From the NCBI GenBank assembly GCA_016198905.1, contig JACQHR010000011.1, positions 7,427-71,426 of the forward strand: a stretch of 64,000 nt of DNA, written 5' to 3'. The notes beneath the pieces were generated by a model. That model was given only the letters and a program-made list of their open reading frames with translations, did not search any database and had not been told where the DNA came from. The position numbers and the translations under genes were made by a program. The stretch is from Candidatus Omnitrophota bacterium (lineage in GTDB: Bacteria; Omnitrophota; Gorgyraeia; Aquiviventales; Aquiviventaceae). Numbering within the stretch: position 1 is the first letter of the stretch; every line of letters starts with the position of its first letter. Below, in pieces: positions 2,059 to 21,767 of this stretch.

Positions 2059-3153
2059 TTAGGTTGCGCCTGTCCCGCGCCCCTTGCCCCGCGCCCCAGA
2101 CGGTTGCGTACCCATATCGTTGATGCGGTGAATGAGCCGGTTGAGCCGGCCGTAATTTTGGCGATTGAACGTCAAGATCAGCCGCGACAACCCTTGCAAG
2201 TTTGGCTCATCGCGTTCTTCCGCAAGGACTGGGCCCTGGCGGATCGTACCCGAGCCGAGCAGATCGCGAAACTCCTGCGTCAGGCGAGCGACCGCAGCTT
2301 CCGAGAGCGGATGCTGCAAGCGGATCGCCAGCGCGTCTCCGACGTAGCGCAGCGAGTGATACGTGGAATAAAAGTGCAAGATGTACTGCACCGCCTCTTC
2401 CGCGGAGCGCGTCACATGATAAATGGCACGATCATCCGGCGAGATCATGCCGCCGCGCTCAAGTTGTTCCGTGAAAAACTTCAGCAGCGGGGTCCAGAAG
2501 GAGCCTTTCGGCGTATCGACGAAGACGATCGGCCGCGGATCGGACTTGCCTGTTTGGACGAGGGTCAGCGATTCGAAGCCTTCATCGAGCGTGCCGAAGC
2601 CGCCGGGAAACAACACGGTGGCGTGAGACTCTTTGATGAAGAGCAGTTTCCTCGTGAAGAAATATTTACAGTTGATGAGCTTGGGGTCTTTGGCGATGAC
2701 GTCGTTGGCCTCTTGCTCAAACGGCAGGCGGATGTTCAACCCGAAACTCGCCTCGCGGCCGGCGCCTTTATGGCCGGCGCGCATAATGCCGCTGGCGGCT
2801 CCGGTGATGACCATCCAGCCGGCGCGCACCATCTGCTCGCCGAAGGCCGAGGCCATGGCGTACGCCGGATGATCCATGCCCAATCGTGCGGATCCAAACA
2901 TCGCGACTTTGCGGTTATGCCGATAGGGGCGAAAGATGTTGAACGCGTAGCGCAGCTCCTTGAGCGCCGCGTTGAGAATTTTCAGATCACCCGTCGAGGC
3001 GCGGTCTTCGCCGAGGCGATACGCCGACACGACCATCTCCGCGAGCAGCTTGCGATCAAACGCGTCAGTAAAGGGGGCGACGAGCTTGGCAATCTGCGCA
3101 TCGACCGCGGCGTTGCGCGTGGTGTAGGCCCGAGAGGATCGTTGCGGTTTCAT
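2059..3153 (-). CDS. LOG family protein (TIGR00730-like, long PpnN-like form)
   Basis: 364 aa with a PGGFGTLDEGFE (PGGxGTxxE) motif and a GAASGIM Rossmann segment. The C-terminal tail GARGKGRGTGAT is encoded by a G-rich heptamer array. Confidence 0.8.
   Translation of the reverse strand: MKPQRSSRAYTTRNAAVDAQIAKLVAPFTDAFDRKLLAEMVVSAYRLGEDRASTGDLKILNAALKELRYAFNIFRPYRHNRKVAMFGSARLGMDHPAYAMASAFGEQMVRAGWMVITGAASGIMRAGHKGAGREASFGLNIRLPFEQEANDVIAKDPKLINCKYFFTRKLLFIKESHATVLFPGGFGTLDEGFESLTLVQTGKSDPRPIVFVDTPKGSFWTPLLKFFTEQLERGGMISPDDRAIYHVTRSAEEAVQYILHFYSTYHSLRYVGDALAIRLQHPLSEAAVARLTQEFRDLLGSGTIRQGPVLAEERDEPNLQGLSRLILTFNRQNYGRLNRLIHRINDMGTQPSGARGKGRGTGAT
2066..2097. repeat. G/C heptamer array (GGGGCNN on the minus strand)
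   Basis: The minus strand reads GGGGCGC GGGGCAA GGGGCGC GGGACAG. It encodes the LOG C-terminal tail and ends about 10 nt from the dnaE start codon. Confidence 0.8.
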
Positions 3154-3202: not shown

Positions 3203-3658
3203 TTACTGTCCAGAATGTTTGGTGGCGTGGACGCCGAATTCGTGGACAAGACGGCCGCCGAGACGCGCGCCGAGGCTGAGTGTCACCGCCATCGCGAGCA
3301 TCAGGATCAAGCTGACGGCTTGCAGCGACGGGGGGAGCTGGTCGCGCTTGACGAGCCGCAGCGCGCTGGCCAGGGTCGCGAAGATGAGTGTCGCGAACCC
3401 GAACCGCTGATGTTGCTCCATCACCTTCCAAATCTCAAAGGAGTGCTTCGCGACTTCCGCCGCCTCGCGTCCGGTGAGGACCGCCACGCCCGCGCCGACG
3501 GTGCCGAGACACAGATTCCAGAGTGCCACGCGATGCAGCGCAGGCCGCTTCAAGATGATCGCGAGTCCATCCAACAGGACAGCGGTCAGCAGCAACGCGA
3601 TCGGAAAGTGCACGATCAGCGGATGGATGTAATGAATCACCTCAAGATCAACCATCAT
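3203..3658 (-). CDS. DUF2231-type membrane protein
   Basis: 151 aa, several hydrophobic helices, N-terminal HPLIVHFPIALL signature. Paralog at 14708..15178 (HPLVIHFPLAFL). Confidence 0.7.
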   Translation of the reverse strand: MMVDLEVIHYIHPLIVHFPIALLLTAVLLDGLAIILKRPALHRVALWNLCLGTVGAGVAVLTGREAAEVAKHSFEIWKVMEQHQRFGFATLIFATLASALRLVKRDQLPPSLQAVSLILMLAMAVTLSLGARLGGRLVHEFGVHATKHSGQ

Positions 3659-3676: not shown

Positions 3677-5980
3677 CTATAACGCCATCTTGCGTAAGCG
3701 CAAGGCGTTGGCAATCACCGACACAGAACTGAAACTCATCGTGGCTGCGGCCAGCATGGGACTCAGGAGAATTCCCAACCAGGGATAGAGGATGCCGGCC
3801 GCTACCGGCACCCCGAGCGCGTTATAGATGAAGGCGAAGAACAAGTTCTGACGGATGTTGCGCATCGTCGCTCGGCTTAACACACGGGCGCGAACGATGC
3901 TGCGCAGATCGCCTTTGACGAGGGTGACGTCTGCGCTCTCCATCGCCACGTCCGTTCCAGTGCCCATCGCGATGCCGACGTTCGCTTGCGCGAGTGCGGG
4001 CGCGTCATTGACGCCATCACCCGCCACCGCGACGACGTGGCCTTGCCGCTGGAGGGTACTGACGATCTCGCCCTTGCGTTCCGGCCGCACGCCGGCATGG
4101 ACGTCGTCGATGCCGAGCGTTGACGCGATGGCGCGGGCCGTGATCTCGTTATCGCCGGTCGCCATGACGATCCGGATGCCGTCCTGCCGCAGCCGCGCGA
4201 TCGCCTCCGGTGTTGAGGGCTTGATGGGATCGGCGACACCGAGCAGCCCGGCGAGCCGTCCGTCGACGCTGACGAACATGACGGTCTGCCCCTCGCGCCG
4301 TAGCGCGTCCGCGCGCGGCGCCATCTCATTGACGGTCACGCCGAGCTCCTGCATGAAGGCCTGGTTCCCGAGGGCCACGCGATGGCCGTCCACGCGTCCG
4401 ACCACCCCCTGGCCTGTGTTCGATTGGAACTCTGACGCCGGCGCGAGCGTTATCTTCCGTGCGTGAGCTTCCGCGACGATCGCCTGCGCGAGCGGATGCT
4501 CGCTGGCGCGCTCGAGGCTCGCGGCGATGCGCAGCAGCGTCGACTCATCGGTCGGCGCGTGCGGCGCGATGGTCACCAGTGCGGGTTTGCCCTCAGTCAG
4601 CGTGCCGGTTTTATCGATGATCAGCGTCTCGACGTGTTCGAAGGTTTCCAGCGCCTCGGCATTCTTGATCAACACGCCGGCCTGCGCGCCGCGGCCGATG
4701 CCGACCATGATCGACATCGGCGTCGCCAACCCCAGCGCGCACGGACACGCGATGATCAGGACGGCCACCGCGTTGACCAGCGCGTACGTCAGGCGCGGCT
4801 GCGGCCCGATGAGCGCCCAGACCACGAAGGTGACGATGGCGATGAGGACGACCGCCGGCACGAAATAACCGGAGATGAGATCAGCCAATCGTTGGATCGG
4901 CGCTTTGCTGCGCTGCGCGTCACAGACCAGGCGGACGATTTGACTCAACAGCGTGTCGGCGCCGACCCGTGTGGCTTCCATGATGAGACTGCCCGTGCCA
5001 TTGATCGTGCCGCCGGTGACGCCGGCACCCGGCGTTTTCTCGACGGGGATCGGCTCTCCGGTGACCATGGACTCATCGACGGCGCTCGTCCCTTCCCGGA
5101 TGACGCCATCAGTGGGCATGCGCTCGCCGGGCCGCACGCGCAGTCGATCACCGACTGTGATGGCCTCAAGCGACACCTCTTCATCGGTGCCGTCCGGTCG
5201 AATCCGTTTCGCGGTCTTCGGTGCCAAGTTCAGGAGTGTTTTGATCGCGTCACTGGTGCGACTGCGAGCGCGTAACTCCAGCACTTGGCCGAGCAGGACC
5301 AGCGTGGTGATGACGGCGGCCGCTTCAAAATACACCGGCACGCTGCCGAGGTGGCTATGAAGCGATGCGGGAAACGTCCCGTGGAAGACGAGCGCAGCGA
5401 CGCTATAGCTGTAGGCGGCTCCCATCCCCAGCGCGATCAGCGTAAACATATTCAGGCTGCGGTGGATAAGTGACGCCCACCCGCGTTTGAAGAACGGCCA
5501 TCCGCCCCACCACACCACGGGAGTCGCCAGCGCGCATTGCAGCCAGGCCAGCAGTCGTGGTGAGAGCGCGCGTTGAAGCGGTTGGCCTGGAAGCATCTCC
5601 GACATCGCAAGCAGGAACACCGGCACGGTCAATGCCAGGCTGCTCCAGAAGCGCCGGGTCATGTCTTGCAACTCACCGTGCGATTCCTTCTGGGCGCTCG
5701 GTGCGAGAAGCTCAAGCGTCATGCCGCAGATCGGGCACGTCCCCGGCCCGCGTTGATGGATTTCAGGATGCATCGGACAAGTGTAGAGCGTCTCGCGTGC
5801 AGGAGTCGCGGTCGGCGATGTCGGCGTGACAGGACGCGCCGGCTGCGCCTGAAACGCCTTCAGACAATGCGCGCTGCAAAAGCGATAGGTCGTTCCGTGT
5901 CGTTCGGCCACGAGTGTCGTGGCAGGATCAACCTCCATCCCACAGATAGGATCTCGAATGGAAAGCGGTGGGACGGTCAT
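3677..5980 (-). CDS. copA: Copper-translocating P1B-type ATPase with N-terminal YHS/TRASH and CPxH..CPICGM metal-binding modules
   Basis: 767 aa with [10 protein letters not shown] (CPC), DKTGTLT and GDGVNDAP motifs. The N-terminus has [15 protein letters not shown] (YHS/TRASH type) and [14 protein letters not shown] instead of a classical HMA fold. Confidence 0.9.
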
Positions 5981-5981
5981 C

Positions 5982-7664
5982 TTAGCGAGTGTAGGCGTTC
6001 ATCACATACTGTTGGAGCATCCGCTGCGTATTGAAGAATGCGCCATTGATGGCGATCGCGTGGCGCATCACATCGATGAACCGGTCTCGGTTGCGATAGA
6101 ACACGGGCGCCACGGTCCGTTCCAGCGCGTCGTACAAGAAGGCGGCATCCTGCGCAGCATCCCTTGGCGTTCCCTCGTTGCCGCCATCTTGGCCAATCGC
6201 CCAGCCTGTGATCCCTTCAATGTGTCCCTCAAGCCACCAGCCATCCAGGATGCTCAGACTCGGCACCCCGTTGAGCGCGGCCTTCATGCCGCTGGTCCCC
6301 GAGGCCTCGAGCGGTGGCTGAGGGGTGTTCAACCATACGTCCACTCCCGCCGTGATGAACTGGCCTAGCTCCATGTCATAGTTTTCCAGGTAAGCCACTT
6401 TGAGGTAGGATTGCAGCGCCTCCTTGGCCTTGATGATGCGTTGAATGAGCGTTTTCCCTTCCTGATCCTGGGGATGCGCCTTGCCGGCATAGATGACCTG
6501 GATCGGGCCGGTGTTCGCCACAATGCGCTTGAGCCGCTCCAGATCGTGAAACAACAAATCGGTTCGCTTGTACGTCGCCGCCCGTCGCGCAAACCCAAGC
6601 GTGAAATGATCGACGTCCATCCCCAGGTTCGTCTGGTCGTTTACGTATTCGAGGAGCCGCTTCTTGGCCTGCAGGTGGGTCGCCCACAACTCCTGCTTGG
6701 GAATGTTGAGCGCATAGCGAAGGCTGAAGTTATCCTGTCGCCAGCCAGGAATATAGCGATCAAACAGCTGCTGAAAGGGTGGTGAAGTCCATGTCACGGC
6801 GTGGACGCCATTGGTGATCGCATCAATCTTGTAGCGGGCGAACATCAACTGAGAGACTTCCCCATGACGCTTGGCGACCCCGTTGACGTAGTGGCTCAGG
6901 TTCAGCGCCAGATAGGTCATATTCAGCAGCCCTTCGCAGCAGAACACCTCGTGCATGTCATATACGTCGCGGCGCCCCAAGACCTGGATCACAAGGTCCA
7001 TTGGGAACTTGTCATGCCCGGCCGGTACCGGGGTGTGGGTGGTGAACACGCACTGCTTGCGGACGACGTCGACATCCTCATGCGTGATGGCGGTTCGTCC
7101 CGCCTGCGTGGCCGCTTCATCGAGCAATTCGAGGGTCAACAGGCTCGCGTGCCCTTCGTTCATGTGGAACCGCGTGAGCTGATCATAGCCCAACGCGCGC
7201 AGCATCCGTACCCCGCCGATTCCGAGGACGGCTTCCTGGCAGAGCCGATAGTGCTGATCCCCGCCGTAGAGGTAGTGGGTCAGCGTCCGATCGCCCTCGG
7301 CATTCTCCGGCAGGTCGGTATCGAGAAGAAAGACCGGCACGGTGAATCCCTCGGCCCCCTGCACGTCGTACTGCCAGGCACGGATGTGGACGGTGCGTCC
7401 CTCAATCATGACCGTGACGCGCTGGGAGCGTTCTCTCAGGTAGTCCTCGACCGCCCACTCCACCGGCTCTTCTCGCTGCCACCCAGTGGCATCCAGCCGC
7501 TGGTAGAAATACCCCTTCCGATGGAGCAACGTAACCGCGACCAGAGAAATGCTAAGATCCGCAGCCGAGCGAATCGTATCGCCCGCCAGCACGCCCAACC
7601 CACCGCTATACGTGGGGATCCCGTGCTCCAAGCAGATCTCCATGGAGAAGTAGGCGATGCTCAT
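5982..7664 (-). CDS. glgP: Alpha-glucan (glycogen/maltodextrin) phosphorylase, short type
   Basis: 560 aa starting [19 protein letters not shown], with the [14 protein letters not shown] pyridoxal-phosphate lysine motif. Confidence 0.85.
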
Positions 7665-8782
7665 GCTGTCACGTTCCTGATGAATCGTTGGGGAGCTGCC
7701 TCAAACTGTTGCCGGCACTTGAGAGAACAGAACCGGTAGAGCGTCCCTCGATCGGTCGCTGAGAAACCAGAGAGCGCAGGGTCCACGTCCATGCCGCAGA
7801 CGACATCGTGGACCCTGCGCGTTTGTGGGGGAGCCGGGGGTGCGGTCGTGACTTCCAAGGATTTGACGATGATTTGGCCCAGCAGCCGTTCGACATCTTC
7901 TCGACGGCAGAGCTGCGTGCCCTCGTGCATGACGGCCGCTGTGCCGGCGGCGGTGCCCAGTCTCATGGCGGATTCCAGCGGTTGACCTTGGGAGAGCGCA
8001 AACACGAACCCGGCCAGGAACGAATCGCCGGCCCCGACTTTGCTTTTGACCTCGACATCAGGACTGGTCACATGGAGCGCCGCATCCTGACTGACGATCA
8101 GCGCCCCCCTGCGTCCTAACGTGATCGCCACGACCTGGACGCCCTCCTGCACGAGTTGCCGGGCTGCGCCGACCATCGCCTGTTCATCGGGCAGCGACCG
8201 ACCCATGAGCCGGGCGAACTCGTGTTCGTTCGGTTTGATCAGGTAGGGCTTGGCTTGCAGGCCGAGCTTCAAGACCTCGTCATCAGCATCCAGCAGACAC
8301 TTCATGCCGCGCTGTTGGAGGGTCGTGATGAGCTTGGCGTAAAAGTCTTCCGGCACCCCTGGCGGGAGGCTCCCTCCGAGCACCCACCACGGGGGCGTCG
8401 GCTGATAGGTCACGATCTTCTGCATGAAGCCTTCAACATCCGCCAGCGTCATCCGGGGACCCGGCGCACTGATGCGCGTCTGGGTCCGATCAGAACGATC
8501 CGTCAGGATGACGTTGATGCGAGTTTCCTCCGGAACCTCGATCGCCTCAAACGGGATGCCATGCTCGGCCATCAGACTCTTGAGCATGTAGCCGGCACAG
8601 CCCCCGGAGACGCCGAAGGCCACCGTTTCGCCGCCAAGTTCTTTCACGACTCGTGAGACGTTGATGCCTTTGCCGCCAGGGTCACGGCGGATCTCGCGTG
8701 CCCGGATGGCATCGTCCTTCATCAGCTTGTCGATCAGGATATGCTGATCGATTGACGGATTGATCGTGACCGTTCCAATCAT
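7661..8782 (-). CDS. PfkB-family (1-phosphofructokinase-like) sugar kinase fused to a C-terminal YHS/TRASH domain
   Basis: 373 aa with DPGGKGINV and [11 protein letters not shown]fkB motifs. The C-terminal ~45 aa read [28 protein letters not shown]. Overlaps glgP by 4 nt. Confidence 0.8.
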
Positions 8783-8981
8783 GGCTTCGAGATCATTTTT
8801 TCCAAGAATTGTCTATGACGAATATCATTTCTGATTGTTAACCCCACCGTCATATCCCTGAAACAGGCGCAGCCTATCCTGCGCCTGTGACGATCGTCGA
8901 TACTGCAGGTTCTGGCGCAGCGCCGCCCAAGACTCTGCCGTTTGAGGCGAACGGCAGGCTGGGCAAACCGGGAGGAACACG

Positions 8982-9737: not shown

Positions 9738-9803
9738 AGCGAGCGACAGGGACCTCATGCGACACACTGGATCAAGGAGCGGCCGGGCATCTGCTGTACC
9801 TGA

Positions 9804-10257: not shown

Positions 10258-11733
10258 TTACAGGCTCTTCTTGCTTGACGCCAACCACCGGCTCACCCGT
10301 GATCGCTTCGGTGGCTCTTCGTCCGGTTCGATCGGTCCCGCGAGGTTTGACGCGGCCTCGCGCAACGCCTCCTCTCCAACAATCCCCTGTGTGACCAGCA
10401 ACGTGATACTGCTTTCCAGCGCGTGCATCCCTTCATGGACTCCGAGCTCGATGTAGCCGCGCAGCTCATGGAGCGCATTGCGGCGGATGACGTTGCGCAC
10501 TGCCAGCGTGGCTAGAAGCACCTCGGTCGCCGCGACCATCCCGGTTCCGTCCCGGCGCTTGAGGAGCCGTTGGGCGACGATCGCTTGAAGGGATTGAGTC
10601 AGTTGGATACGGATCTGTCCCTGGATCTCAGCCTCGAACACATCCAGGATGCGCGTGATCGCCTGGATCGTCGTTCCGCTGTGCAAAGTCCCCAGGACGA
10701 GATGGCCGGTTTCCGCCGCGGTGATGGCCAGCGCAATGCTTTCCCGATCCCGCAGTTCGCCAACCATGATGATGTCCGGGTGTTCGCGCAGCGCGCTGCG
10801 CAACCCATCGGCAAAGGATCGGGTATGGGCGTCCAGTTCCCGCTGGTGGATCAGCGAGCGCTTGTTGGGAATCACGTACTCAATGGGATCTTCAATGGTG
10901 ATGATGTGCCGCTCATCCCGCTGGTTGATGGCATCGATGAGGGCGGCCAGCGTGGTGGACTTGCCGCTTCCCGCTGGCCCGGTCACCAAAATCAGGCCTC
11001 GTGGGCAGCGGCTGAGTTGCTCGAAGATCGGTGGCAGACCCAATTCAGCCAGGGTTGGGATCCGATGGGGAAGAGGCCGGAACGCGATGGCCTGCCCGTC
11101 TTGTTCCCGGAAGACGTTCACCCGAAAGCGCGATAAGCCCTCGATCCCGATCCCCACGTCCACCTCGCGGCCTTCGAGGAATTGCGTCCGCTTGGCCTCC
11201 GGCAACAACGCTTCGATGATGCAGGAGAGGCGGTCTGCGGTCAGCGGAGCGTTGTTGAGCGGCTTGAACGAGCCGTACACCTTGAGGGTGGGCCGATCGG
11301 CGACGGCCAAGAAGAGGTCTGAGGCATTCTGCCGGACCGCCTGTTCCAACCACGGCAGCAGCCCACAGCGGCTCAGGCGTTCGACGAGATTCGCTGGCTG
11401 CTGGACCCCTGGCATAGGAGCCAGCGCCGGGCGTTCGCCGGATTGACTCAAAAACACCGAGGCGCACGTCGGGCAGCAGAATTGGTACGTGGATCCCCGG
11501 ATCGTGAGCGGTGCCGTCGATTCCCCCTGATGGATCGTCTTGCGGCACAGCTCACAATGTCCTGTGGGCGCCTGCGGCTGCTGCTGAGCGAGAAAGCGCT
11601 CCGGCTCCATGAGGAAGGCGCGCTGGCAGGACTCTGCGCAGAAGAAATGCCGCGTGCCAGCGTGGTCGTCATAGAGTCGCGCCTGCTCGGCCTGTTCGAC
11701 CAGCACCTCCATGCCACACACGGGGTCACGCAT
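10258..11733 (-). CDS. pilT: PilT-family type IV pilus retraction-type ATPase with two N-terminal YHS/TRASH-like zinc/copper modules
   Basis: Walker A GPAGSGKSTTLAA, IITIEDPIEY and MVGELRD motifs. The N-terminus has DPVCGMEV..HFFCAESCQRAF and CELCRKT..YQFCCPTCASVF. I chose the start at ATG 11733, which has AAGGAGG 6 nt upstream; the track start 11883 overlaps the previous gene. Confidence 0.85.
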   Translation of the reverse strand: MRDPVCGMEVLVEQAEQARLYDDHAGTRHFFCAESCQRAFLMEPERFLAQQQPQAPTGHCELCRKTIHQGESTAPLTIRGSTYQFCCPTCASVFLSQSGERPALAPMPGVQQPANLVERLSRCGLLPWLEQAVRQNASDLFLAVADRPTLKVYGSFKPLNNAPLTADRLSCIIEALLPEAKRTQFLEGREVDVGIGIEGLSRFRVNVFREQDGQAIAFRPLPHRIPTLAELGLPPIFEQLSRCPRGLILVTGPAGSGKSTTLAALIDAINQRDERHIITIEDPIEYVIPNKRSLIHQRELDAHTRSFADGLRSALREHPDIIMVGELRDRESIALAITAAETGHLVLGTLHSGTTIQAITRILDVFEAEIQGQIRIQLTQSLQAIVAQRLLKRRDGTGMVAATEVLLATLAVRNVIRRNALHELRGYIELGVHEGMHALESSITLLVTQGIVGEEALREAASNLAGPIEPDEEPPKRSRVSRWLASSKKSL

Positions 11734-11743
11734 TGGACCTCCT

Positions 11744-12382
11744 TCACTCATGCAGGGCATTGAGGAGGCCCTCAATCCCTTGGTCGTCGTACAGCTTCCG
11801 CAGACGTTTTCGCTCAGTGCGAATCGCATCGTCGGCCTCAGAGGCTGGAAGTTCTTGCGGTTCCGGAGGCCAGAGTGTCCCATCTTGGAAGCGCACCATC
11901 TTTACCGTCAGGAGGGCTTTCACTACCTCCTCAGTCTGTGAAACCCGTTGTTCCCAACGCCGCTGGCGCATCTCTCCGAGCGTGAGTGTTTGGTTATCGT
12001 TCACTTCAACTACCCAGCGCGTTTGATCGAACGCATCGAGCAGTTTCCACTGGAACCGGACGGCGCTCACACTCCGTTTGCTGCTGTTGCGATACCGAAG
12101 CTGGCCCTCCCAATGGTCGAACTGTGCGCTGTGGATATTAGCAGACTTCGTCCGAGTATGATGAGCAGCACCGACACGTGAAGGGACCGCCTGATACTCC
12201 AAGAGTTGTCCCGTGGCTTCGAGCACATCGATTGGTGCAGCAGGCACCTTCACCACCTCAACCGGAACCTCCTGATCGGCAAACGTACGTCCCATTATCG
12301 AGCCATACAACACGCTGGCGGCGAACACCCATCTGAGTGCCTGGGGCACGACGTGGCTGGAGGATCGCTCCTCACCGCGCAT
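11744..12382 (-). CDS. Hypothetical secreted protein
   Basis: 212 aa ORF with a hydrophobic signal-like N-terminus (VFAASVLYGSIMG) and a coding-like composition. I recognise no family. Confidence 0.5.
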   Translation of the reverse strand: MRGEERSSSHVVPQALRWVFAASVLYGSIMGRTFADQEVPVEVVKVPAAPIDVLEATGQLLEYQAVPSRVGAAHHTRTKSANIHSAQFDHWEGQLRYRNSSKRSVSAVRFQWKLLDAFDQTRWVVEVNDNQTLTLGEMRQRRWEQRVSQTEEVVKALLTVKMVRFQDGTLWPPEPQELPASEADDAIRTERKRLRKLYDDQGIEGLLNALHE

Positions 12383-13820: not shown

Positions 13821-14288
13821 TTAATGCCGATGCTGAACAGGCGCCTCATCCCCGGATGACGGCTGTGCCTGCTGCAGAAACTGTGCCGGCTCCTTGGCAA
13901 ACGCTCCGAGATGCGCTTCATTGGCAAAAAAGTAGGCGTGCCCATCATAGCTATAGATCAACGCTTGCGCCTTGTCGACCGGCTGGCCGCTGACAGGGTC
14001 CATGGTATGGCTAAACCGTTCTGGATCGCTGGCAAACCGTTTTAGACAACCGGCACAGCAGAGATAGTAGGTCTTACCTTGGTAGGCGTACTCTAGGCCG
14101 GGGGTCTTTTGGAGATTATCGTCGATCATACAGACAAGGCGGCGATCCTCTACGCGTCCCGTCGACATCGGGGCACCCGGTACGCTCTCTGCATTCGTTG
14201 CCGCTGCCAACAATCCAAGGAGTCCGATCGACAGCCATACCCTGTTCAGTCGTTTCATACGTCCTTCCCCCTGTTTTAAGATGGTCAC
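13821..14288 (-). CDS. Secreted YHS-domain protein (two YHS-like repeats)
   Basis: Signal peptide, then KTYYLCCAGCLKRFASDPERF and a second YDGHAYFFANEAHLGAFAKEPAQF repeat. Confidence 0.7.
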   Translation of the reverse strand: MTILKQGEGRMKRLNRVWLSIGLLGLLAAATNAESVPGAPMSTGRVEDRRLVCMIDDNLQKTPGLEYAYQGKTYYLCCAGCLKRFASDPERFSHTMDPVSGQPVDKAQALIYSYDGHAYFFANEAHLGAFAKEPAQFLQQAQPSSGDEAPVQHRH

Positions 14289-15647: not shown

Positions 15648-18600
15648 TCAGGAATTCGAGCTGGCCAACGTCCCTGCGTGATGCTTGAGCACCCAATCAG
15701 CCTGGCCTTCTTTCATCTCGAACTTCCACTTCCAGATGGCATAGATGGTCGGATACACGAGCAGCTCCAGGATGAATGAGGAAAACAAGCCCCCCACCAT
15801 CGGCGCAGCGACTCGCTTCATCATGTCGGCCCCAGCCCCCGTCGACCACATGATCGGCAACAGTCCCATAAACGCGGCCATCACCGTCATCATCTTGGGC
15901 CGCACGCGCTTGACCGCGCCATGGACGATCGCTTCCTCCAGATCCTGCTCGGTGCGCATCCGGCCCTTCTCCACGGCGTCATGGTAGGACAGATCTAGAA
16001 ACAACAGCATGAAGACCCCGGTTTCCGCATCCAGTCCCATCAGGGCGATCATCCCCACCCACACCGCGATCGAGATGTTGTAGCCGAGCAACCACAGCAG
16101 CCAGACCGCCCCAATCAGCGAAAACGGCACGGCCAGCAAAACGATCGCCGTCTTCACCATGGACTTCGTGTTCATGTAGAGCAGGACACAGATGATAAAG
16201 ATGGTCAGCGGCAGCACGACCTTCATCCGCTCCTTTACCCGGATCATATTTTCGTACTGGCCGCTCCACGTCAGCGCGTAGCCTGGCGGGAGCTTGAGCT
16301 CCTTGGCCACGATCTGCTTGGCCTCTGTCACATAGCTGCCGATGTCTCGTCCGGCCATGTCGACGTAGACATAGCCGGCGAGCAGTCCATTCTCATTGCG
16401 GATCATGGCAGGTCCTGAGACCAGACGGATATCGGCCAGCTGCACCAAGGGGATGTGCTGACCCGCCGGGGTCGGCACGAGGACGCGCTTTAATTTCTCG
16501 ATGTCATCCCGAAACTCTCGGGAGTAGCGGACATTGACCGGATACCGCTCGCGACCCTCGATGGTCGTCGTGATGTTTTCGCCGCCAATCGCGGACATGA
16601 TGACCATCTGGACCTCAGCGACGGAGAGGCCGTAGCGTGCCAGCTCATCGCGGTTGAGGTCGAAATCCACGAAGTAGCCGCCGGCCACGCGCTCGGCGTA
16701 GATGCTGCGCGTGCCGGGCACGTTTTTGAGGATCATCTCCAGGTGCGTGCCGAGCTCTTCGATCTTCTTGAGATCGGCGCCGAAGATCTTGATGCCGATC
16801 GGCGTGCGCACGCCCGTCGTCAACATGTCGATGCGGTTTTTGATCGGCATCGTCCAGGCGTTGGTGACCCCGACGATCTTGAGTGAACGGTCCATCTCAT
16901 CGATGAGCTGTTCATACGAGATATGACAAGGCCAGAATGGGCGGAACGGCCCTTCAAGGAAGTCAGGCAGCCACGAGTACCACCGCTTGACTTGGCGCCA
17001 CTCCCGCTCCGGCTTCAGGAGAACCACCGTCTCCATCATGGAAAACGGGGCCGGGTCGGTGGAACTTTCCATTCGGCCAGATTTGCCGAACACTCGCTCC
17101 ACCTCTGGAAAACTCTTGAGCACCTGATCTTGCTTTTGCAGGAGTGCTTGGGCTTCTGTCACGGAAATACCAGGCAGGGTGGTAGGCATGTATAAGAGGC
17201 TGCCTTCCCGAAGCGGCGGCATGAACTCCGAACCCAGCCGCAAATAGATCGGCACGGTGGTGAGGACCAGCCCAAGGGCGGTCAACAGGGTTGCTTTGCG
17301 ATGCTTGAGGACGAACCGGCAGGCCGGCTCGTAGATGCGGAAGAGCACTTTACTGACGGGGTGCTTTTCTTCCGGATAGTAGGTGCCCACCGCGACGGTC
17401 GTCGCCGCTTTGGACGCCATCCCTCGGAGGCGCTCCGGGATCCAGCGGGCTTTCAGGGTGATCGGCTCCATGCGGGTGAAGAGCATCCGCATCGCGGGAT
17501 CGAGTGTGACCGCCAAGATCGCGGCGATCGCCATCGCCAGGTTCTTCGCCCAGGCGAGCGGCTTGAACAGGCGCCCCTCCTGATCGACCAGCGTAAAAAT
17601 CGGCATGAACGCGACGGCGATGACGAGCAGCGAGAAGAAGACCGATGGGCCGACTTCTTTCAGCGCCTTGAGTCGAATCGCATGGTAGTCGCCCTTGCGC
17701 CCGCCCTCGATCCACTGCTCGAGGCGCTTATAGGCGTTCTCTACCTCGACGATGGCGCCGTCCACCAGCACTCCGATGGAAATCGCCATGCCCGACAGCG
17801 ACATGATGTTGGAGGTCAGCCGCATCCCGTAGAGGGGAATGAACGAGAGGATTACGGAAATCGGAATCGTGACGATCGGGATGATCGCCGAGGGGAAGTG
17901 CCACAAGAAGATGAGGATCACGATGCTGACGATGATCATCTCTTCGATGAGCTTTTCCTTCAAGTTCTTGATGGCCTCGAGGATCAGTTCTGAGCGGTCG
18001 TAGGTGATTTCCACCTTCACCCCAGGTGGCAGCGATGGTTCGATGTCTTTCAGTTTCGCTTTGACCCGGTTGATGACGTTCAAAGCGTTTTCTCCAGACC
18101 GCATGATGACGGTGCCCCCGACGACATCCCCTTGGCCGTCGAAGTCGGCCAATCCTCGTCGCAGATCAGGGCCGAGTGCGACCGTGCCGATGTGCTTGAC
18201 TAAGATGGGCGTGCCCTTCTGGTCGGTCGCCACGACGATCTTTTCAATGTCCTCGACGGATTTGAGGTAGCCGCGGCCTCGGACCATGTACTCGGCCCCG
18301 GAGAACTCCAAGAGCCGGCCGCCCACCTCCTGGTTCCCCATCCGGATTGCGTCGACCACCTTCGTCAGCGGAATGTTGTAGGCGAGCAACCGGTTGGGGT
18401 CGATCGTGACTTGATACTGCTTGACGAATCCGCCGATCGAGGCGACTTCCGCCACTCCTGGAACGCTCTGGAGGTAATAGCGCAAATACCAATCCTGGTA
18501 GCTGCGCAACTCTTGAAGATTATGCTTGCCCGAGGTATCGACGAGGGCGTACTGAAACACCCAGCCCACCCCGGTCGCGTCTGGACCCAATTCAGTCCGG

Positions 18601-19064
18601 ACGCCCTCCGGCAAACGAGGGATGATCTTGCTCAGGTACTCCAGCGTCCGCGAGCGGGCCCAGTAGATGTCGGTCCCATCCTTGAAGATCACATAGACGT
18701 AGGAGAAGCCGAAGTCCGAGAAGCCCCGGATGGCCTTGACGCGCGGAGCCCCCAGCATCGCGGTGACGATTGGGTAGGTGACCTGGTCTTCGATGATGTC
18801 CGGGCTGCGATCCCAGCGAGAGTAGATAATGACCTGGGTATCCGACAAGTCGGGAATGGCATCCAAGGGAATGCTCTTGAGCGTCCAGATCGCGGCGATC
18901 ATCGCCACGACGACGAAGGTCAGCACGAGGAACTTGTTATGCGCGGAGAACTCAATGAGCTTTTCGATCACCCCACCCGTGCGCAAGGTCGGGGACTGGC
19001 CGCTCTCAGTCCCACCGACCTCGGGACGAACAGGTTCACTGGCCGCCATGTTGGTGCCCTCCAC
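15648..19064 (-). CDS. cusA: CusA/CzcA-family heavy-metal efflux RND permease
   Basis: 1138 aa with 12-TM RND architecture and typical HME-RND segments (AIPDLSDTQVII, GVGWVFQY, DGAIVEVEN). Confidence 0.95.
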   Translation of the reverse strand: MEGTNMAASEPVRPEVGGTESGQSPTLRTGGVIEKLIEFSAHNKFLVLTFVVVAMIAAIWTLKSIPLDAIPDLSDTQVIIYSRWDRSPDIIEDQVTYPIVTAMLGAPRVKAIRGFSDFGFSYVYVIFKDGTDIYWARSRTLEYLSKIIPRLPEGVRTELGPDATGVGWVFQYALVDTSGKHNLQELRSYQDWYLRYYLQSVPGVAEVASIGGFVKQYQVTIDPNRLLAYNIPLTKVVDAIRMGNQEVGGRLLEFSGAEYMVRGRGYLKSVEDIEKIVVATDQKGTPILVKHIGTVALGPDLRRGLADFDGQGDVVGGTVIMRSGENALNVINRVKAKLKDIEPSLPPGVKVEITYDRSELILEAIKNLKEKLIEEMIIVSIVILIFLWHFPSAIIPIVTIPISVILSFIPLYGMRLTSNIMSLSGMAISIGVLVDGAIVEVENAYKRLEQWIEGGRKGDYHAIRLKALKEVGPSVFFSLLVIAVAFMPIFTLVDQEGRLFKPLAWAKNLAMAIAAILAVTLDPAMRMLFTRMEPITLKARWIPERLRGMASKAATTVAVGTYYPEEKHPVSKVLFRIYEPACRFVLKHRKATLLTALGLVLTTVPIYLRLGSEFMPPLREGSLLYMPTTLPGISVTEAQALLQKQDQVLKSFPEVERVFGKSGRMESSTDPAPFSMMETVVLLKPEREWRQVKRWYSWLPDFLEGPFRPFWPCHISYEQLIDEMDRSLKIVGVTNAWTMPIKNRIDMLTTGVRTPIGIKIFGADLKKIEELGTHLEMILKNVPGTRSIYAERVAGGYFVDFDLNRDELARYGLSVAEVQMVIMSAIGGENITTTIEGRERYPVNVRYSREFRDDIEKLKRVLVPTPAGQHIPLVQLADIRLVSGPAMIRNENGLLAGYVYVDMAGRDIGSYVTEAKQIVAKELKLPPGYALTWSGQYENMIRVKERMKVVLPLTIFIICVLLYMNTKSMVKTAIVLLAVPFSLIGAVWLLWLLGYNISIAVWVGMIALMGLDAETGVFMLLFLDLSYHDAVEKGRMRTEQDLEEAIVHGAVKRVRPKMMTVMAAFMGLLPIMWSTGAGADMMKRVAAPMVGGLFSSFILELLVYPTIYAIWKWKFEMKEGQADWVLKHHAGTLASSNS

Positions 19065-20427
19065 CCGTCATCCCTTCTAAGGCGGCTTTGAGGCGGCTCT
19101 CGGAGTCGATCAGGAAGTTGCCGCTGGTGACGACGAGCTCCCCCTCGGACACGCCGCTCTTGATCTCATAGTAGCCCTCCGCCTTGACCCCAACGGTGAC
19201 ATCACGCGGCTCAAAAAGCCCCTGGCCTTTATCGACGAAGATGACCTGCTTTGTCCCCGTGTCGAACACGGCCTCTTCGGGAACTGCGAGCACCTCGCCC
19301 GCGGCGACGGCGATGGAGGCGTTCACGAACATCTCCGGCTTCAGGATATTCTCAGGATCGGTCAGGATAGCCCGCACGCGGGCTGATCGCGTCGCAGGAT
19401 CCAGCACCGGGTCGATCGAGCGGATCGTGCCTGCCAAGGTCTTGCCGGGAATGGCTTGGATTTCGATCGTGATGATCTGGCCGACGTTGACTAGCGGCAA
19501 TTCATACTCGTAGATCGGCGCATAGAGCCACACCCGACCATTCGGATCGGCCAGCAACAAGCTCTGGTCAGGCCCGGTCCAACCGGCCATCTCATCGATC
19601 AGCTCATTGCTTAACCCCAATCGACGCAGCCGAAAACGGCTGGAGTCAACCAGCCGCTGCGCCCGCTCAGTCACCTCCGGCATGGTGCCGGTCTTGGCTT
19701 GTTCCAACGCTTTCAGAGCCTGAAGGTATTCCTGCTCGGCCTGATACAGCTCCGGATCGTTCGCGATCTGTCCGACCGTTCGGATGATCTTGTTGATCGT
19801 CCGACGCTGCACTGGTGCTGTGGTGACACCGATGAACTGTCGCTTTTGGGACGTAACCAGGATTGGCGCGTACCCTTCAGGTGCAGTGGCTGAAACCTCA
19901 CCAGAGACTCCGTTTTCCTCGTAGACCGGAATCAGATCCATCCCCATCGGCGATTTGCCCGGCTTGTCCGACTTGTAGCCCGGAAGCATCGGATCGGTCC
20001 AGTAGAGGATTGTCTTCTCTTCCCCGGCGGGCGAGACGGAGGAGCTGACCGCAGCCTCCGCCACATGGGTTCCACAGATTGGGCAGACGACCTTTTCCCC
20101 CGCTTTGGCCATGACGAGCATGGGACATTTTTGTCCCGGCTTCATCATCGGGCAATTGTGCATGTAGCAAATATCTTTCGCCGTCTTTGCCGTGTGCTGT
20201 GTGCTTAGTGCCGTGTGCTGTGTGCTTTCTTTCTTGACCAACTTCATGTTGCAGATCGGACAGTCCCCGGGACGATCCGCGGTATAGGTGGGGTGCATCG
20301 GACAATAGTAGACGACCTGTTGGTGCGCGCCGGGACGGACCCGAGAGACGACTCCCACCACAGCCACGCCAAGGAGGCTGGCAATGATCAAGCCTCCAAT
20401 GAGTTGAGGGTTCTTGACGCGCATCAT
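19036..20427 (-). CDS. cusB: Efflux RND periplasmic adaptor (CusB-like) with N-terminal CPMHP..CPIC metal-binding modules
   Basis: 463 aa with YYCPMHPTY..CPICNMKL and CPMLV..CPICGTHV, plus a membrane-fusion-protein core. Contains an in-frame heptamer-repeat insertion (STQHTALSTQHTAKTAK). Confidence 0.9.
   Translation of the reverse strand: MMRVKNPQLIGGLIIASLLGVAVVGVVSRVRPGAHQQVVYYCPMHPTYTADRPGDCPICNMKLVKKESTQHTALSTQHTAKTAKDICYMHNCPMMKPGQKCPMLVMAKAGEKVVCPICGTHVAEAAVSSSVSPAGEEKTILYWTDPMLPGYKSDKPGKSPMGMDLIPVYEENGVSGEVSATAPEGYAPILVTSQKRQFIGVTTAPVQRRTINKIIRTVGQIANDPELYQAEQEYLQALKALEQAKTGTMPEVTERAQRLVDSSRFRLRRLGLSNELIDEMAGWTGPDQSLLLADPNGRVWLYAPIYEYELPLVNVGQIITIEIQAIPGKTLAGTIRSIDPVLDPATRSARVRAILTDPENILKPEMFVNASIAVAAGEVLAVPEEAVFDTGTKQVIFVDKGQGLFEPRDVTVGVKAEGYYEIKSGVSEGELVVTSGNFLIDSESRLKAALEGMTGGGHQHGGQ
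20189..20230. repeat. Two tandem 21-nt units built of GCTGTGT-type heptamers, inside cusB
   Basis: GCCGTGTGCTGTGTGCTTAGT followed by GCCGTGTGCTGTGTGCTTTCT. Confidence 0.9.
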
Positions 20428-21767
20428 CAGCTGCCTCCTGTAAGTTTCAAATCCGTTCCAACCGCCCGTTCGAGCGCTGCGAAACTTTTCAGCGCCTCGG
20501 CCAGCGCCTGATAGTAGGCGACTTGGGCGTTGAGGTAGACTCGTTCGCTATCGATGAGATTCAATACATCCATGCGGCCAGCCTCGTAGCCGGCCTGATC
20601 CGAGCGAAACGCCAGCTCCGCTTCAGGGATCAGGGCATTTTGGTAGACCTCCACCACCTGCTTGGCGGCGGTGAAGCGATAGTAGGCGTCCTTGACTTCA
20701 TACGCTGTGAAGTTCTCGGCCTGTTTGAGCTTGGCTTGGCTGGCGTTGAGATTTCGCTTCGCCTCCAGCACGCTGGGGATCAGGCGGTTTTGCCAGATGG
20801 GCAGGGTGATCTTCAACGGCACCATCCAGGCGTCGCGGCCATCATTGGGCTCGGTCGTCATGCCGGCGCCAATTTGGGTGTACTGGAATCCCACGGTAAG
20901 GTCCGGCACATACTCCAACTTGGCCAGGGTGTTGGCGTGCTGCTTCCGCTTCACCATCGCCGAGGCCTCGCCAAGTTCCGGGCGGCGCTTCTGAGCCGTC
21001 GCCAGGAGCTCTTCAAGCGTCGAGGACAGCGTAGACAACTCGGGTTGCTCCGCGTGTCCCACCGGCGTATGGGGATGACGGTCGAGCAGCGCGTTGAGCA
21101 GGGCGGCCGCCGTCTGACGCTGCTGGCGCAGCACCAACAACCGCTGCAGCACGTCCGAGACTTCAGCCTGGGCCTTGGCCACATCCCGCTGCGATCCGCC
21201 TTGCGCCGCGTACCGGGATTGGGCGATGCCTTCAAATCGTTTCAGCACTTCGTTGATCTCCTCCACGGCTTGCACCACGGCGTCGGTGGCATAAAGGTTA
21301 TAGTACGTGTCGGAAACCTTCAGGATGACGTCGCGCTCTGTGGCGTGGAGTTGGGCCTGAGCCGCTTGCGCCTCAGCCGCCGCCATGCGGTGCTTTTCCC
21401 AGAGCTTGCCGGGAAACGGCACCATCTGTTCGGCCTCATAGACGTTCATCTGGGGCCCGAGGCGGGTTTCCAAATCCGGTCCCATAATGGCGTAGCCAAC
21501 GCTCGGATCCGGAAGCGCCGAGGCTTGCGGGATGCGCAGCTTCGCGGCCCGCCACTGCTCCTTGGCCGCCTTGAGTTCCGGATTTCTCTCGAGCGCCTCG
21601 GTGATGACCTCTGCGAGACGAAGCTCCTCTGCCGGCTGCTCCTTCGCCGCTGCGTTAGGCGGCGACGCCATCTGGAGGACGAGCGCAGCCGTCAACAGAT
21701 CAATTCCTCGCATCCACGACCTCCTTGTTCCAAGACCTTCTCGGATCACGCGCTGACGCACGTGCAC
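20427..21767 (-). CDS. cusC: TolC-family outer-membrane efflux protein (CusC-like)
   Basis: 446 aa with a two-repeat OEP helical pattern. The stop overlaps the cusB start. The true start may be MRGIDLL (21713). Confidence 0.85.
   Translation of the reverse strand: MHVRQRVIREGLGTRRSWMRGIDLLTAALVLQMASPPNAAAKEQPAEELRLAEVITEALERNPELKAAKEQWRAAKLRIPQASALPDPSVGYAIMGPDLETRLGPQMNVYEAEQMVPFPGKLWEKHRMAAAEAQAAQAQLHATERDVILKVSDTYYNLYATDAVVQAVEEINEVLKRFEGIAQSRYAAQGGSQRDVAKAQAEVSDVLQRLLVLRQQRQTAAALLNALLDRHPHTPVGHAEQPELSTLSSTLEELLATAQKRRPELGEASAMVKRKQHANTLAKLEYVPDLTVGFQYTQIGAGMTTEPNDGRDAWMVPLKITLPIWQNRLIPSVLEAKRNLNASQAKLKQAENFTAYEVKDAYYRFTAAKQVVEVYQNALIPEAELAFRSDQAGYEAGRMDVLNLIDSERVYLNAQVAYYQALAEALKSFAALERAVGTDLKLTGGS

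What the first reader, a model, noticed from the sequence alone, without database searches (positions are those of the whole stretch)
5982..8782. Glucan phosphorylase and a YHS-tagged PfkB kinase translationally coupled to copA
The PfkB-YHS gene (7661-8782), glgP (5982-7664) and copA (3677-5980) run with a 4-nt overlap and then a 1-nt gap, which indicates one transcript. The sugar kinase carries a C-terminal YHS/TRASH motif ([20 protein letters not shown]), the same type found at the CopA N-terminus. Carbohydrate-mobilising enzymes wired by both operon and domain to a copper exporter are unexpected. They hint at metal-controlled glycogen/fructose-phosphate flux, for example energy or reductant supply during copper stress.
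Basis: partly seen in the sequence, partly recalled or inferred. Interest (0 to 1): 0.55.

Follow-up and report, generated by a model that had tools for sequence, protein, structure and literature searches.

The report
Copper-tagged sugar kinase beside copper pump
An uncultured Omnitrophota bacterium keeps a glycogen-breakdown enzyme and a sugar-phosphate kinase carrying a probable copper-binding tag in the same gene string as its copper pump, and related genomes repeat this pairing, which suggests that copper stress is tied to mobilising stored sugar.

Summary
On the minus strand, a PfkB-family kinase with a C-terminal YHS domain (7661-8782) overlaps an alpha-glucan phosphorylase (5982-7664) by 4 nt (ATGA). 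The phosphorylase ends 1 nt before a Cu(I)-type P1B ATPase (3677-5980).

The fusion is not an artefact:
- About 70 protein clusters at 47-100% identity keep it, mostly from Omnitrophota MAGs.
- One Asp and three Cys are invariant. These are the residues proposed as ligands in the copper-activated YHS adenylyl cyclase of Mycobacterium phlei.
- The YHS segment is as constrained as the kinase domain, and the linker evolves freely.

The three genes lie in a roughly 23 kb metal-efflux island with cusCBA, periplasmic YHS proteins, DUF2231 and a YHS/TRASH-PilT ATPase.

Across 14 distinct fused loci, 9 have a P1B ATPase or heavy-metal RND pump within 10 kb, in shuffled gene orders, and 7 have the phosphorylase. 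Among 114 unfused PfkB loci the figures are 1 and 0. In related islands the phosphorylase and a thioredoxin-reductase-like flavoprotein also carry YHS.

Unfused orthologues overlap pyruvate kinase genes, which points to a glycolytic phosphofructokinase.

Metal control of the kinase is plausible and has a precedent, but it is untested. I rate this a new variant of a known kind.

The parts
7661..8782 (-). PfkB-family phosphofructokinase-like kinase (residues 1-308), a Pro-rich flexible linker (309-323) and a C-terminal YHS domain (324-368)
   Evidence: Family scores are. The AF2 model has pLDDT 91 with a low-confidence linker. Foldseek gives TM 0.93-0.95 to FruK 2abq and Pfk-2 3n1c. D326, C329, C352 and C356 are invariant in 31 orthologues. 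Against L005, dN is 0.105 for the kinase, 0.736 for the linker and 0.056 for YHS.
5982..7664 (-). Short-form alpha-glucan (glycogen/maltodextrin) phosphorylase whose start overlaps the kinase stop (ATGA)
   Evidence: TIGR02094 scores 567 bits. The [12 protein letters not shown]-lysine motif is visible. It is 96% identical in L005 and 70-75% identical across many phyla.
3677..5980 (-). Cu(I)-type P1B-1 ATPase (CopA) with N-terminal YHS and HMBD; its start lies 1 nt after the phosphorylase stop
   Evidence: Family scores are. DKTGT, CPC, NX6YNX4P and MX2SS can be read. The junction is shown.
3203..3658 (-). DUF2231 membrane protein, 18 nt downstream of copA, with a GGAG upstream of its start
   Evidence: A second DUF2231 gene lies at 14708-15388.
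2059..3153 (-). LOG/TIGR00730-family protein, possibly the last gene of the unit
   Evidence: It is conserved downstream in L005 and lies next to an unfused PfkB in L012.
8783..8981 (.). Divergent intergenic region upstream of the kinase, containing a perfect 10-bp palindrome at 8863-8888. It is a possible operator or hairpin with no assigned function.
   Evidence: unique in the window. The region is not conserved with L005.
10258..11883 (-). PilT/PilU-family ATPase with N-terminal YHS and TRASH domains. In L005 and L169 it lies directly upstream of PfkB-YHS.
13821..14288 (-). Secreted protein with two YHS repeats. The second repeat lacks the cysteines.
15648..21767 (-). cusCBA-type heavy-metal RND efflux system: outer membrane factor 20427-21767, HMBD-bearing adaptor 19036-20427 and RND pump 15648-19064
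   Evidence: TIGR00914, 1090 bits.
23766..24812 (-). Truncated pyruvate kinase (barrel domain only, 348 aa) at the upstream edge of the island
   Evidence: A 49%-identical short pyruvate kinase sits in the L169 island.

Best explanation
Shown:
- pfkB-YHS, glgP and copA form a tightly packed gene string at the downstream end of a ~23 kb metal-efflux island in an Omnitrophota genome. DUF2231 follows copA closely and a LOG gene may complete the unit.
- The kinase is a conserved, specialised paralogue of a PfkB-type sugar-phosphate kinase. A flexible linker tethers a YHS domain to it, and that domain keeps one Asp and three Cys invariant. The Met of the CGM motif is usually present as well.

Inferred:
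- The kinase is a glycolytic phosphofructokinase. Together with the phosphorylase it channels stored glycogen into glycolysis. A truncated pyruvate kinase at the upstream edge of the island may contribute.
- The unit is expressed with the copper pump. Substrate-level ATP is then available when copper poisons Fe-S-dependent energy metabolism and the ATP-driven CopA has to run.
- The YHS domain binds copper and switches or tunes the kinase, as the C-terminal YHS domain does in the Mycobacterium phlei adenylyl cyclase.

YHS tags on the phosphorylase, on a thioredoxin-reductase-like flavoprotein and on a PilT ATPase in sister islands suggest one common post-translational copper signal acting on several cytoplasmic enzymes.
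For: - Fusion conservation: 72 of the top 120 clusters have PfkB plus a PF04945 hit. D326, C329, C352 and C356 are invariant. These are the residue types proposed as Cu ligands in the YHS adenylyl cyclase, which 1-10 uM Cu2+ switches on and other metals do not (PMC4626032).
- Selection: the YHS dN of 0.056 is at or below the kinase dN of 0.105, and the linker dN is 0.736.
- Context: a P1B ATPase or HME-RND pump lies within 10 kb in 9 of 14 fused loci against 1 of 114 unfused loci. GlgP is present in 7 of 14 against 0 of 114. Any P-type ATPase is present in 10 of 14 against 1 of 114.
- Gene order differs between loci. The window and L005 have pfkB-glgP-copA, L010 has glgP-pfkB-copA, L168 has csoR - YHS-flavoprotein - pfkB-YHS - cusCBA, and L169, L170 and L173 differ again.
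- YHS-GlgP fusions lie next to P1B ATPases in L169 and L171.
- The closest YHS domains elsewhere sit on CusB-type adaptors, P1B ATPases and ArsP permeases.
- Glycolytic role: pyruvate kinase genes lie directly upstream of the unfused orthologues in about 24 loci. The one junction read in detail (L021) overlaps by 4 nt.
- Paralogue status: one MAG holds both a fused and an unfused copy (P0032; L013).
Against: - There is no biochemical or expression data.
- YHS in this protein scores below Pfam's gathering threshold (27.2 vs 30.3 bits).
- Three fused loci show no efflux genes: L003, L167 and L172. The CGT sub-clade sits by type-II ATPases, not copper genes.
- Substrate specificity is unresolved. 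FruK, Pfk-2 and LacC structures are about equally close, and NCBIfam's 1-phosphofructokinase equivalog is passed.
- A phosphofructokinase consumes ATP, so the 'energy supply' logic is indirect.
- In Synechocystis, glgP is repressed, not induced, by copper (PMC4182526).
- The enrichment test compares mostly different phyla and ignores shared ancestry among the fused loci.
- No copper regulator or recognisable operator was found upstream in this window.
Confidence: 0.5

Rival explanations
1. Copper buffering or hand-off. The YHS tags on abundant cytoplasmic enzymes act as Cu(I) sinks or chaperones, or as docking modules that bring the enzymes to the pump. They take the place of a CopZ-type chaperone. 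Catalysis by the kinase is not regulated by the metal.
For: - No small HMA chaperone was detected in the window island.
- CopA here carries a 49%-identical YHS at its N-terminus.
- Several unrelated enzymes carry the same tag.
- The long flexible linker would suit a tethered hand-off.
Against: - In L010 and L169 the neighbouring CopA has an HMA domain and no YHS, so like-with-like docking is not general.
- In L168 no P-type ATPase lies in the 15.6 kb available.
- It does not explain why this particular set of enzymes recurs.
- The only tested YHS-enzyme fusion is regulatory.
Confidence: 0.15
2. Hitch-hiking plus a structural zinc ribbon. A glycogen/glycolysis gene pair happened to lie where a metal island was assembled. 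The kinase picked up a YHS/TRASH-like treble-clef module from a neighbouring gene, and that module now only stabilises the protein or mediates oligomerisation. On this view there is no metal control of carbon flux.
For: - TRASH/YHS relatives can be purely structural metal sites, such as ribosomal protein L24e, and the toluene-4-hydroxylase YHS has no known role (PMC4626032).
- Fused loci without efflux genes exist.
- Short GlgP sits in general stress or energy clusters in other phyla.
Against: - The association recurs in shuffled gene orders down to 47% kinase identity and is essentially absent from unfused loci.
- The ligand set is invariant and the domain is under purifying selection.
- The nearest YHS sequences belong to metal-trafficking proteins.
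- The phosphorylase acquired a YHS independently, at its N-terminus, beside P1B ATPases.
Confidence: 0.2
3. The kinase is not a glycolytic phosphofructokinase. It phosphorylates another ketose phosphate or sugar to make a protective or signalling metabolite needed under metal stress. The phosphorylase supplies the precursor.
For: - The NCBIfam 1-phosphofructokinase equivalog is passed, and FruK is the best PDB match.
- TreT-like glycosyltransferases lie close to the kinase in L168 and L170, and HD-type phosphohydrolases lie close to it in L169 and L173.
Against: - Pyruvate kinase-pfkB pairs occur in unfused orthologues.
- Pyruvate kinase, GAPDH, PEPCK and PPDK genes occur in the islands.
- No fructose PTS gene was seen in any locus examined.
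Confidence: 0.12

Closest known systems
YHS-domain adenylyl cyclase of Mycobacterium phlei (Linder 2015, PMC4626032)
   Same: Both have a cytoplasmic enzyme with a single C-terminal YHS domain on a short linker and the same conserved Asp plus three Cys. In the cyclase, micromolar copper specifically switches the enzyme on, which makes YHS a sensor module.
   Different: The catalytic domain there is a class III cyclase that produces a signal, not a metabolic kinase. The linker is 8 residues there and about 15-20 Pro-rich residues here. No genomic link to efflux genes was reported. Nothing has been measured for the kinase.
PfkB-type phosphofructokinases: E. coli Pfk-2, and M. tuberculosis PfkB (Rv2029c) as a stress-regulon isozyme (the latter from my own knowledge)
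   Same: They share the ribokinase-like fold, the GXGD and NXXE motifs and a length of about 310 aa. Both are a second, condition-specific kinase alongside a housekeeping copy.
   Different: None of the characterised enzymes has a metal-binding domain. Their regulation is by MgATP or by transcription, not by metals. The substrate of the present enzyme is unknown.
P1B-1 copper ATPases with N-terminal YHS (for example the Rhizobium leguminosarum Cu-ATPase listed in PMC4626032) and cus/cop efflux islands
   Same: CopA, CusCBA, HMBD and YHS periplasmic proteins form an ordinary copper/silver resistance island.
   Different: Known islands are not reported to embed glycogen phosphorylase, phosphofructokinase or pyruvate kinase genes. 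They are also not reported to tag such enzymes with the pump's own metal-binding domain. No such paper was found.
pfk-pyk glycolytic operons
   Same: Unfused orthologues of this kinase overlap a pyruvate kinase gene. That is the classic pairing of the two irreversible glycolytic kinases.
   Different: Here the pair is split and spread through a metal island. The pyruvate kinase is truncated and the kinase is fused to YHS.

Membership tests
PfkB/ribokinase family, 1-PFK-type hexose-phosphate kinase subfamily (TIGR03168) | Profile score above the curated cut-off | tested here: met
   TIGR03168 scores 337 bits against 216, and Pfam PfkB scores 177 bits.
PfkB/ribokinase family, 1-PFK-type hexose-phosphate kinase subfamily (TIGR03168) | Ribokinase-like fold | tested here: met
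   The AF2 model has pLDDT 91. Foldseek gives TM 0.93-0.95 and rmsd 1.8 to 2abq and 3n1c.
PfkB/ribokinase family, 1-PFK-type hexose-phosphate kinase subfamily (TIGR03168) | Catalytic GXGD motif and NXXE motif | tested here: met
   G250-A251-G252-D253, N185 and E188 are invariant in 31 orthologues.
PfkB/ribokinase family, 1-PFK-type hexose-phosphate kinase subfamily (TIGR03168) | Substrate identity (F6P, F1P or tagatose-6-P) | tested here: inconclusive
   The FruK equivalog is passed (322 vs 292 bits), but Pfk-2 and LacC structures are nearly as close. Pyruvate kinase adjacency in unfused orthologues favours F6P. An enzyme assay is needed.
YHS domain (PF04945), metal-sensor type | Profile score above Pfam's gathering score | tested here: not met
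   The score is 27.2 bits against 30.3, with E = 3.8e-6. Most orthologues do have a precomputed PF04945 hit.
YHS domain (PF04945), metal-sensor type | Conserved Asp plus three Cys, the proposed ligands | tested here: met
   D326, C329, C352 and C356 are invariant. The ligand proposal is in PMC4626032.
YHS domain (PF04945), metal-sensor type | Binds copper and changes the activity of the fused enzyme | not testable with these tools
   This needs purified protein. Only the M. phlei precedent exists.
Alpha-glucan phosphorylase (GT35, TIGR02094 short form) | Profile score above the cut-off and the PLP-lysine motif | tested here: met
   TIGR02094 scores 567 bits against 191.7. EASGTSGMK is present.
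P1B-1 Cu(I)-exporting ATPase (CopA) | DKTGT, the TM4 CPC motif, NX6YNX4P and MX2SS (signature motifs recalled from the literature on P1B subgroups) | tested here: met
   All four can be read in the translation. TIGR01511 scores 614 bits against 397. The E. coli CopA equivalog cut-off is not reached (661 vs 1316 bits), because the N-terminus has YHS+HMBD and no HMA.
Single operon with translational coupling | Same strand, with overlapping or abutting stop and start codons | tested here: met
   There is an ATGA overlap and TAAgATG. No convincing terminator lies between the genes.
Single operon with translational coupling | One transcript, copper-inducible | not testable with these tools
   No expression data are available. 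No known operator was recognised.

The most novel reading that the evidence does not exclude
YHS tags form a post-translational 'copper regulon' in Omnitrophota and their relatives. Cytoplasmic Cu(I) would bind the tags on a phosphofructokinase, a glycogen phosphorylase, a thioredoxin-reductase-like flavoprotein and a PilT motor ATPase. That binding would directly switch on glycogen-fuelled glycolysis, thiol repair and pilus retraction alongside efflux. It would be the first case of direct allosteric control of bacterial central carbon metabolism by a toxic metal through a portable sensor domain.
Probability: 0.25. Interest if true: 0.8.

Novelty: new variant of a known kind. Interest (0 to 1): 0.6.

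Why it matters
Metal resistance is usually described as sensing by transcription factors plus export. Here a sugar-phosphate kinase and a glycogen phosphorylase repeatedly travel with copper pumps, and they carry the pump's own metal-binding module. If that module senses copper, cells would re-route stored carbon within seconds of metal entry, without new transcription.

This would extend the single biochemical precedent for YHS as a sensor (an adenylyl cyclase) to metabolic enzymes. It would assign a function to a widespread but poorly understood domain. It would also give a testable physiological trait for Omnitrophota, a phylum with no cultured members. The proteins are small and soluble, so the test is a simple enzyme assay.

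Tried and rejected
Those loci served only as controls.
- The YHS-only search of the representative library was dominated by multi-repeat YHS proteins. It gave a family census but no list of other YHS-tagged enzymes.
- The upstream regions of the window and L005 do not align. The 10-bp palindrome at 8863-8888 occurs only once in the window. Promoter and terminator scans were at chance level. No regulon could be inferred.
- Structure and sequence comparison with PDB could not separate F1P, F6P and tagatose-6-P kinases.
- The neighbour-joining tree of fused and unfused kinases interleaves the two and is too weak to say whether the fusion arose once.
- Frameshift or assembly artefact was rejected on the conservation evidence. 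One locus (L008) does have the YHS in a separate frame.
- The idea that the copper link is universal was rejected. L003, L167 and L172 and the CGT sub-clade lack copper genes.
- A literature search for a copper-glycogen link found only the opposite trend in Synechocystis.
Full report
**Observation**

- The kinase (7661-8782, 373 aa) passes NCBIfam TIGR03168 (337 bits against a cut-off of 216) and TIGR03828 (322 against 292). It also matches Pfam PfkB at E = 7.5e-52.
- Its last 50 residues read [44 protein letters not shown]. They match Pfam YHS at E = 3.8e-6 and 27.2 bits, slightly below the gathering score of 30.3.
- The next gene (5982-7664, 560 aa) is a short-form alpha-glucan phosphorylase (TIGR02094, 567 bits) with the PLP-lysine motif EASGTSGMK.
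- The third gene (3677-5980, 767 aa) is a P1B ATPase (TIGR01511, 614 bits) with an N-terminal YHS (residues 9-49) and an HMBD (66-90).
- Its translation shows DKTGT, CPC, NX6YNX4P and MX2SS. From my knowledge of P1B subgroups, this is the Cu(I)/Ag(I) P1B-1 signature.
- The junctions are a 4-nt ATGA overlap and TAAgATG.
- A DUF2231 membrane protein follows after 18 nt, and a LOG-family gene after a further 49 nt.

**The fusion is real and selected**

- The exact protein exists in a public 'Candidatus Omnitrophica bacterium' MAG on a 106 kb contig.
- 72 of the 120 best 90%-identity clusters carry both PfkB and a precomputed YHS hit, down to 47% identity.
- In an alignment of 31 of them, D326, C329, F351, C352, S353, C356 and F360 are invariant. 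The linker varies in both length and sequence.
- Against the 81%-identical orthologue in L005, dN is 0.105 for the kinase domain, 0.736 for the linker and 0.056 for the YHS segment.
- AlphaFold2 models both domains confidently, with a low-confidence tether at 311-323.
- One MAG (RIFCSPHIGHO2_02_FULL_51_18) has both a fused copy (P0032) and an unfused copy that ends straight after the kinase domain (L013). The fused gene is therefore a specialised paralogue.
The architecture is rare and largely confined to Omnitrophota-type MAGs.

**Surroundings in the window**

On the minus strand, roughly 25.4 kb down to 2 kb reads as a metal-efflux island:
- a DsbD_N protein;
- a truncated pyruvate kinase (23766-24812);
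- two small ORFs, one of them a His-rich secreted protein;
- cusC, an HMBD-bearing cusB, and a CusA/CzcA-family pump (TIGR00914, 1090 bits);
- a second His-rich paralogue and a DUF2231 protein;
- a secreted two-YHS protein;
- four ORFs with no family match;
- a PilT-family ATPase with N-terminal YHS and TRASH (10258-11883);
- a TrmO-like gene;
- a plus-strand porin-like gene;
- then pfkB-YHS, glgP, copA, DUF2231 and LOG.

The rest of the window holds housekeeping genes.

**Is the link to metal efflux more than an accident of this genome?**

I collected 14 distinct fused loci, counting the window.
- **L005** (81% identity) repeats the whole island.
- **L001** (62%) has a CusCBA-like system and a type-II P-type ATPase upstream. 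It then has pfkB-YHS overlapping glgP, followed by PEPCK and a GH57 branching enzyme.
- **L010** (47%) has the order glgP, pfkB-YHS, HMA-type copA, ArsP permease.
- **L168** (50%) has csoR, a YHS-tagged pyridine-nucleotide-disulfide oxidoreductase, pfkB-YHS and cusCBA.
- **L169** (48%) has a YHS-phosphorylase fusion, a short pyruvate kinase, YHS/TRASH-PilT, pfkB-YHS, an HD protein, the YHS-flavoprotein and HMA-copA.
- **L170** (49%) has cusCBA, NosL, small YHS and HMA proteins, pfkB-YHS, GAPDH, a P1B ATPase and a CDF.
- **L173** (51%) has a P1B ATPase, czcBA, an HMBD protein, an HD protein and pfkB-YHS.
- **L008** has a CusA homologue upstream and a CopA fragment at the contig end.
- **L172** has MgtC, pfkB-YHS, glgP and hemerythrin, with no efflux genes.
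- **L003** and **L167** have no efflux genes.
- **L007** and **L024** have type-II P-type ATPases nearby. L007 also has a phosphorylase and a hydrogenase, and L024 has PFOR. Their YHS reads CGT in place of CGM, as it does in L003.

Scored by tblastn with the window's proteins:

| Neighbour within 10 kb | Fused loci (14) | Unfused PfkB loci of at least 8 kb (114) | Fisher p |
|---|---|---|---|
| P1B ATPase or heavy-metal RND pump | 9 | 1 | 1e-9 |
| The phosphorylase | 7 | 0 | 4e-8 |
| Any P-type ATPase | 10 | 1 | 5e-11 |

The p-values overstate the case. The fused loci are related to one another, and the controls come mostly from other phyla. Still, the shuffled gene orders argue against simple inheritance of one arrangement.

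**The tag is not restricted to the kinase**

- The phosphorylase is extremely conserved, at 70-75% identity across KSB1, Thermodesulfobacteriota, Acidobacteria and others.
- Two of the top 120 clusters have an N-terminal YHS. One of them (L171) sits directly after a YHS-bearing P1B ATPase.
- YHS-tagged flavoproteins and PilT ATPases recur in these islands.
- A search of 1.84 billion representatives with the kinase's YHS alone found 2250 hits. The longer top hits are CusB-type adaptors, P1B ATPases and ArsP permeases. The tag therefore belongs to the metal-trafficking branch of the domain family.
- It is 21/43 identical to the YHS of the CopA two genes downstream.

**What the kinase probably does**

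- By sequence and by fold it is about equally close to B. halodurans FruK, E. coli Pfk-2 and LacC, so specificity cannot be read from homology.
- In about 24 loci with unfused orthologues (43-50% identity, mainly Chloroflexota/Dehalococcoidia), a pyruvate kinase gene lies directly upstream. In L021, the junction read in detail, it overlaps the kinase start by 4 nt.
- The islands also hold pyruvate kinase, GAPDH, PEPCK or PPDK genes.
- No fructose PTS gene was seen in any locus.
- I therefore favour a glycolytic 6-phosphofructokinase that commits phosphorylase-derived hexose phosphate to glycolysis. This is an inference.

**Mechanism**

The only tested YHS-enzyme fusion is the M. phlei adenylyl cyclase.
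- 1-10 uM Cu2+ switches it from off to on with Mg2+, and no other metal does.
- The effect needs the C-terminal YHS domain.
- One Asp and three Cys were proposed as ligands (PMC4626032).

The kinase keeps exactly that set on a flexible tether. The best-supported reading has three parts:
- The island-encoded kinase is a copper-responsive isozyme.
- It is co-expressed with glgP and copA.
- Glycogen-fuelled substrate-level phosphorylation then supports ATP-driven efflux when copper damages Fe-S-dependent energy metabolism in these anaerobes.

That copper targets Fe-S enzymes comes from my own knowledge, not from anything tested here.

Three rivals remain:
- The tags act as copper buffers or docking modules.
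- The tag is a structural zinc ribbon in genes that merely hitch-hiked with the island.
- The kinase has a non-glycolytic substrate.

The docking idea is weakened because the neighbouring CopA has an HMA domain and no YHS in L010 and L169.

Points against the main reading are the fused loci without copper genes and the unresolved substrate. There is no recognisable regulator or operator upstream. glgP is repressed under copper in Synechocystis (PMC4182526).

**Wider pattern**

In other phyla the same short phosphorylase sits in other energy-linked contexts:
- with phosphoketolase, acetate kinase and a type-II cation ATPase (L175);
- with a small YHS protein and MgtC (L174).

MgtC also flanks pfkB-YHS in L003 and L172. 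The general theme may be glycogen mobilisation paired with ATP-driven cation pumps, with the Omnitrophota copper islands as one elaboration of it.

**Novelty and verdict**

- Full-text searches found no paper linking YHS with PfkB, phosphofructokinase or Omnitrophota metabolism.
- The large Omnitrophota survey does not mention copper or glycogen.
- Each component is a known family, and YHS as a sensor has one precedent. YHS-tagged glycolytic and glycogen enzymes embedded in copper islands appear to be undescribed.
- I class this as a new variant of a known kind, with moderate-to-high interest.

Noticed in passing
window 10258-11883 (-); also L005 8217-9677 and L169 5609-7081: A PilT/PilU-family ATPase (TIGR01420, 411 bits) has an N-terminal extension of about 175 aa that carries a YHS and a TRASH domain. 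In L005 and L169 it lies directly upstream of pfkB-YHS. This hints at metal-responsive pilus retraction or some other hexameric-ATPase function.
   Followed up: partly
L169 156-1988; L171 3280-5118; proteins P0166, P0189: These are glucan phosphorylases with an N-terminal YHS domain (610-612 aa). In L171 the gene follows a YHS-bearing P1B ATPase, and in L169 it lies in the same island as pfkB-YHS.
   Followed up: partly
L168 8708-9763; L169 9161-10207: A thioredoxin-reductase-like flavoprotein (Pyr_redox_2, about 350 aa) with an N-terminal YHS domain lies next to pfkB-YHS. In L168 it is preceded by a CsoR-type repressor gene.
   Followed up: no
window 23766-24812 (-); L169 3304-4269: A pyruvate kinase lacks the C-terminal regulatory domain (348 and 321 aa; TIGR01064, 441 bits over model positions 2-337 of 476). 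It sits at the edge of the metal island. The two copies are 49% identical.
   Followed up: partly
window 13821-14288 (-): A secreted protein has two YHS repeats. The second repeat has lost all the cysteines (DPVSGQPVD...YFFANEAHL), so it cannot bind metal in the same way.
   Followed up: no
window 15184-15696 (-) and 22001-22432 (-); L170 18233-18502: Paralogous His-rich secreted proteins (HEHDHAHG / HEHGGHDHG near the N-terminus) have no Pfam or NCBIfam match. They flank cusCBA on both sides, and a homologue sits in the L170 island.
   Followed up: no
window 13459-13794 (-); L005 6144-6476; L008 2204-2530: A 111-aa protein with no family match and a Cys-rich tail (CRCSSGQCTCHE) is conserved in the same cus islands, directly downstream of CusA in L008. 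It may be a metal-binding or regulatory protein.
   Followed up: no
window 8863-8888: A perfect 10-bp inverted repeat, ACAGGCGCAG-N6-CTGCGCCTGT, lies in the divergent region between the porin-like gene and pfkB-YHS. It is unique in the window and is not conserved in L005.
   Followed up: partly
window 8982-10244: A plus-strand porin-like ORF (251 aa, no family) and a TrmO-like gene separate PilT-YHS from pfkB-YHS here. L005 has only a 51-aa Cys-rich ORF (L005 9805-9960, ...CCPDCAQGKTCDCQ) at that position. This looks like a local insertion or replacement.
   Followed up: no
L174 and L175: In KSB1 and Thermodesulfobacteriota the same short phosphorylase (71-73% identical) sits beside MgtC and a small YHS protein (L174), or in an acetate kinase - phosphoketolase - GlgP - HAD - GHMP kinase cluster next to a type-II P-type ATPase (L175). 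This may reflect a general pairing of glycogen mobilisation with cation pumps.
   Followed up: partly
L008 3789-4897: In this Omnitrophota MAG the YHS segment lies in a different reading frame from the kinase domain, and the called protein P0059 is 323 aa without YHS. This is either a sequencing frameshift or a natural split of the fusion.
   Followed up: no
L021 8562-10933, and about 24 other unfused loci: In L021 a full-length pyruvate kinase gene overlaps the start of the unfused PfkB orthologue by 4 nt. In the other Dehalococcoidia/Chloroflexota loci a pyruvate kinase match lies at the same position upstream of the kinase. The pyk-pfkB pair appears to be conserved.
   Followed up: partly
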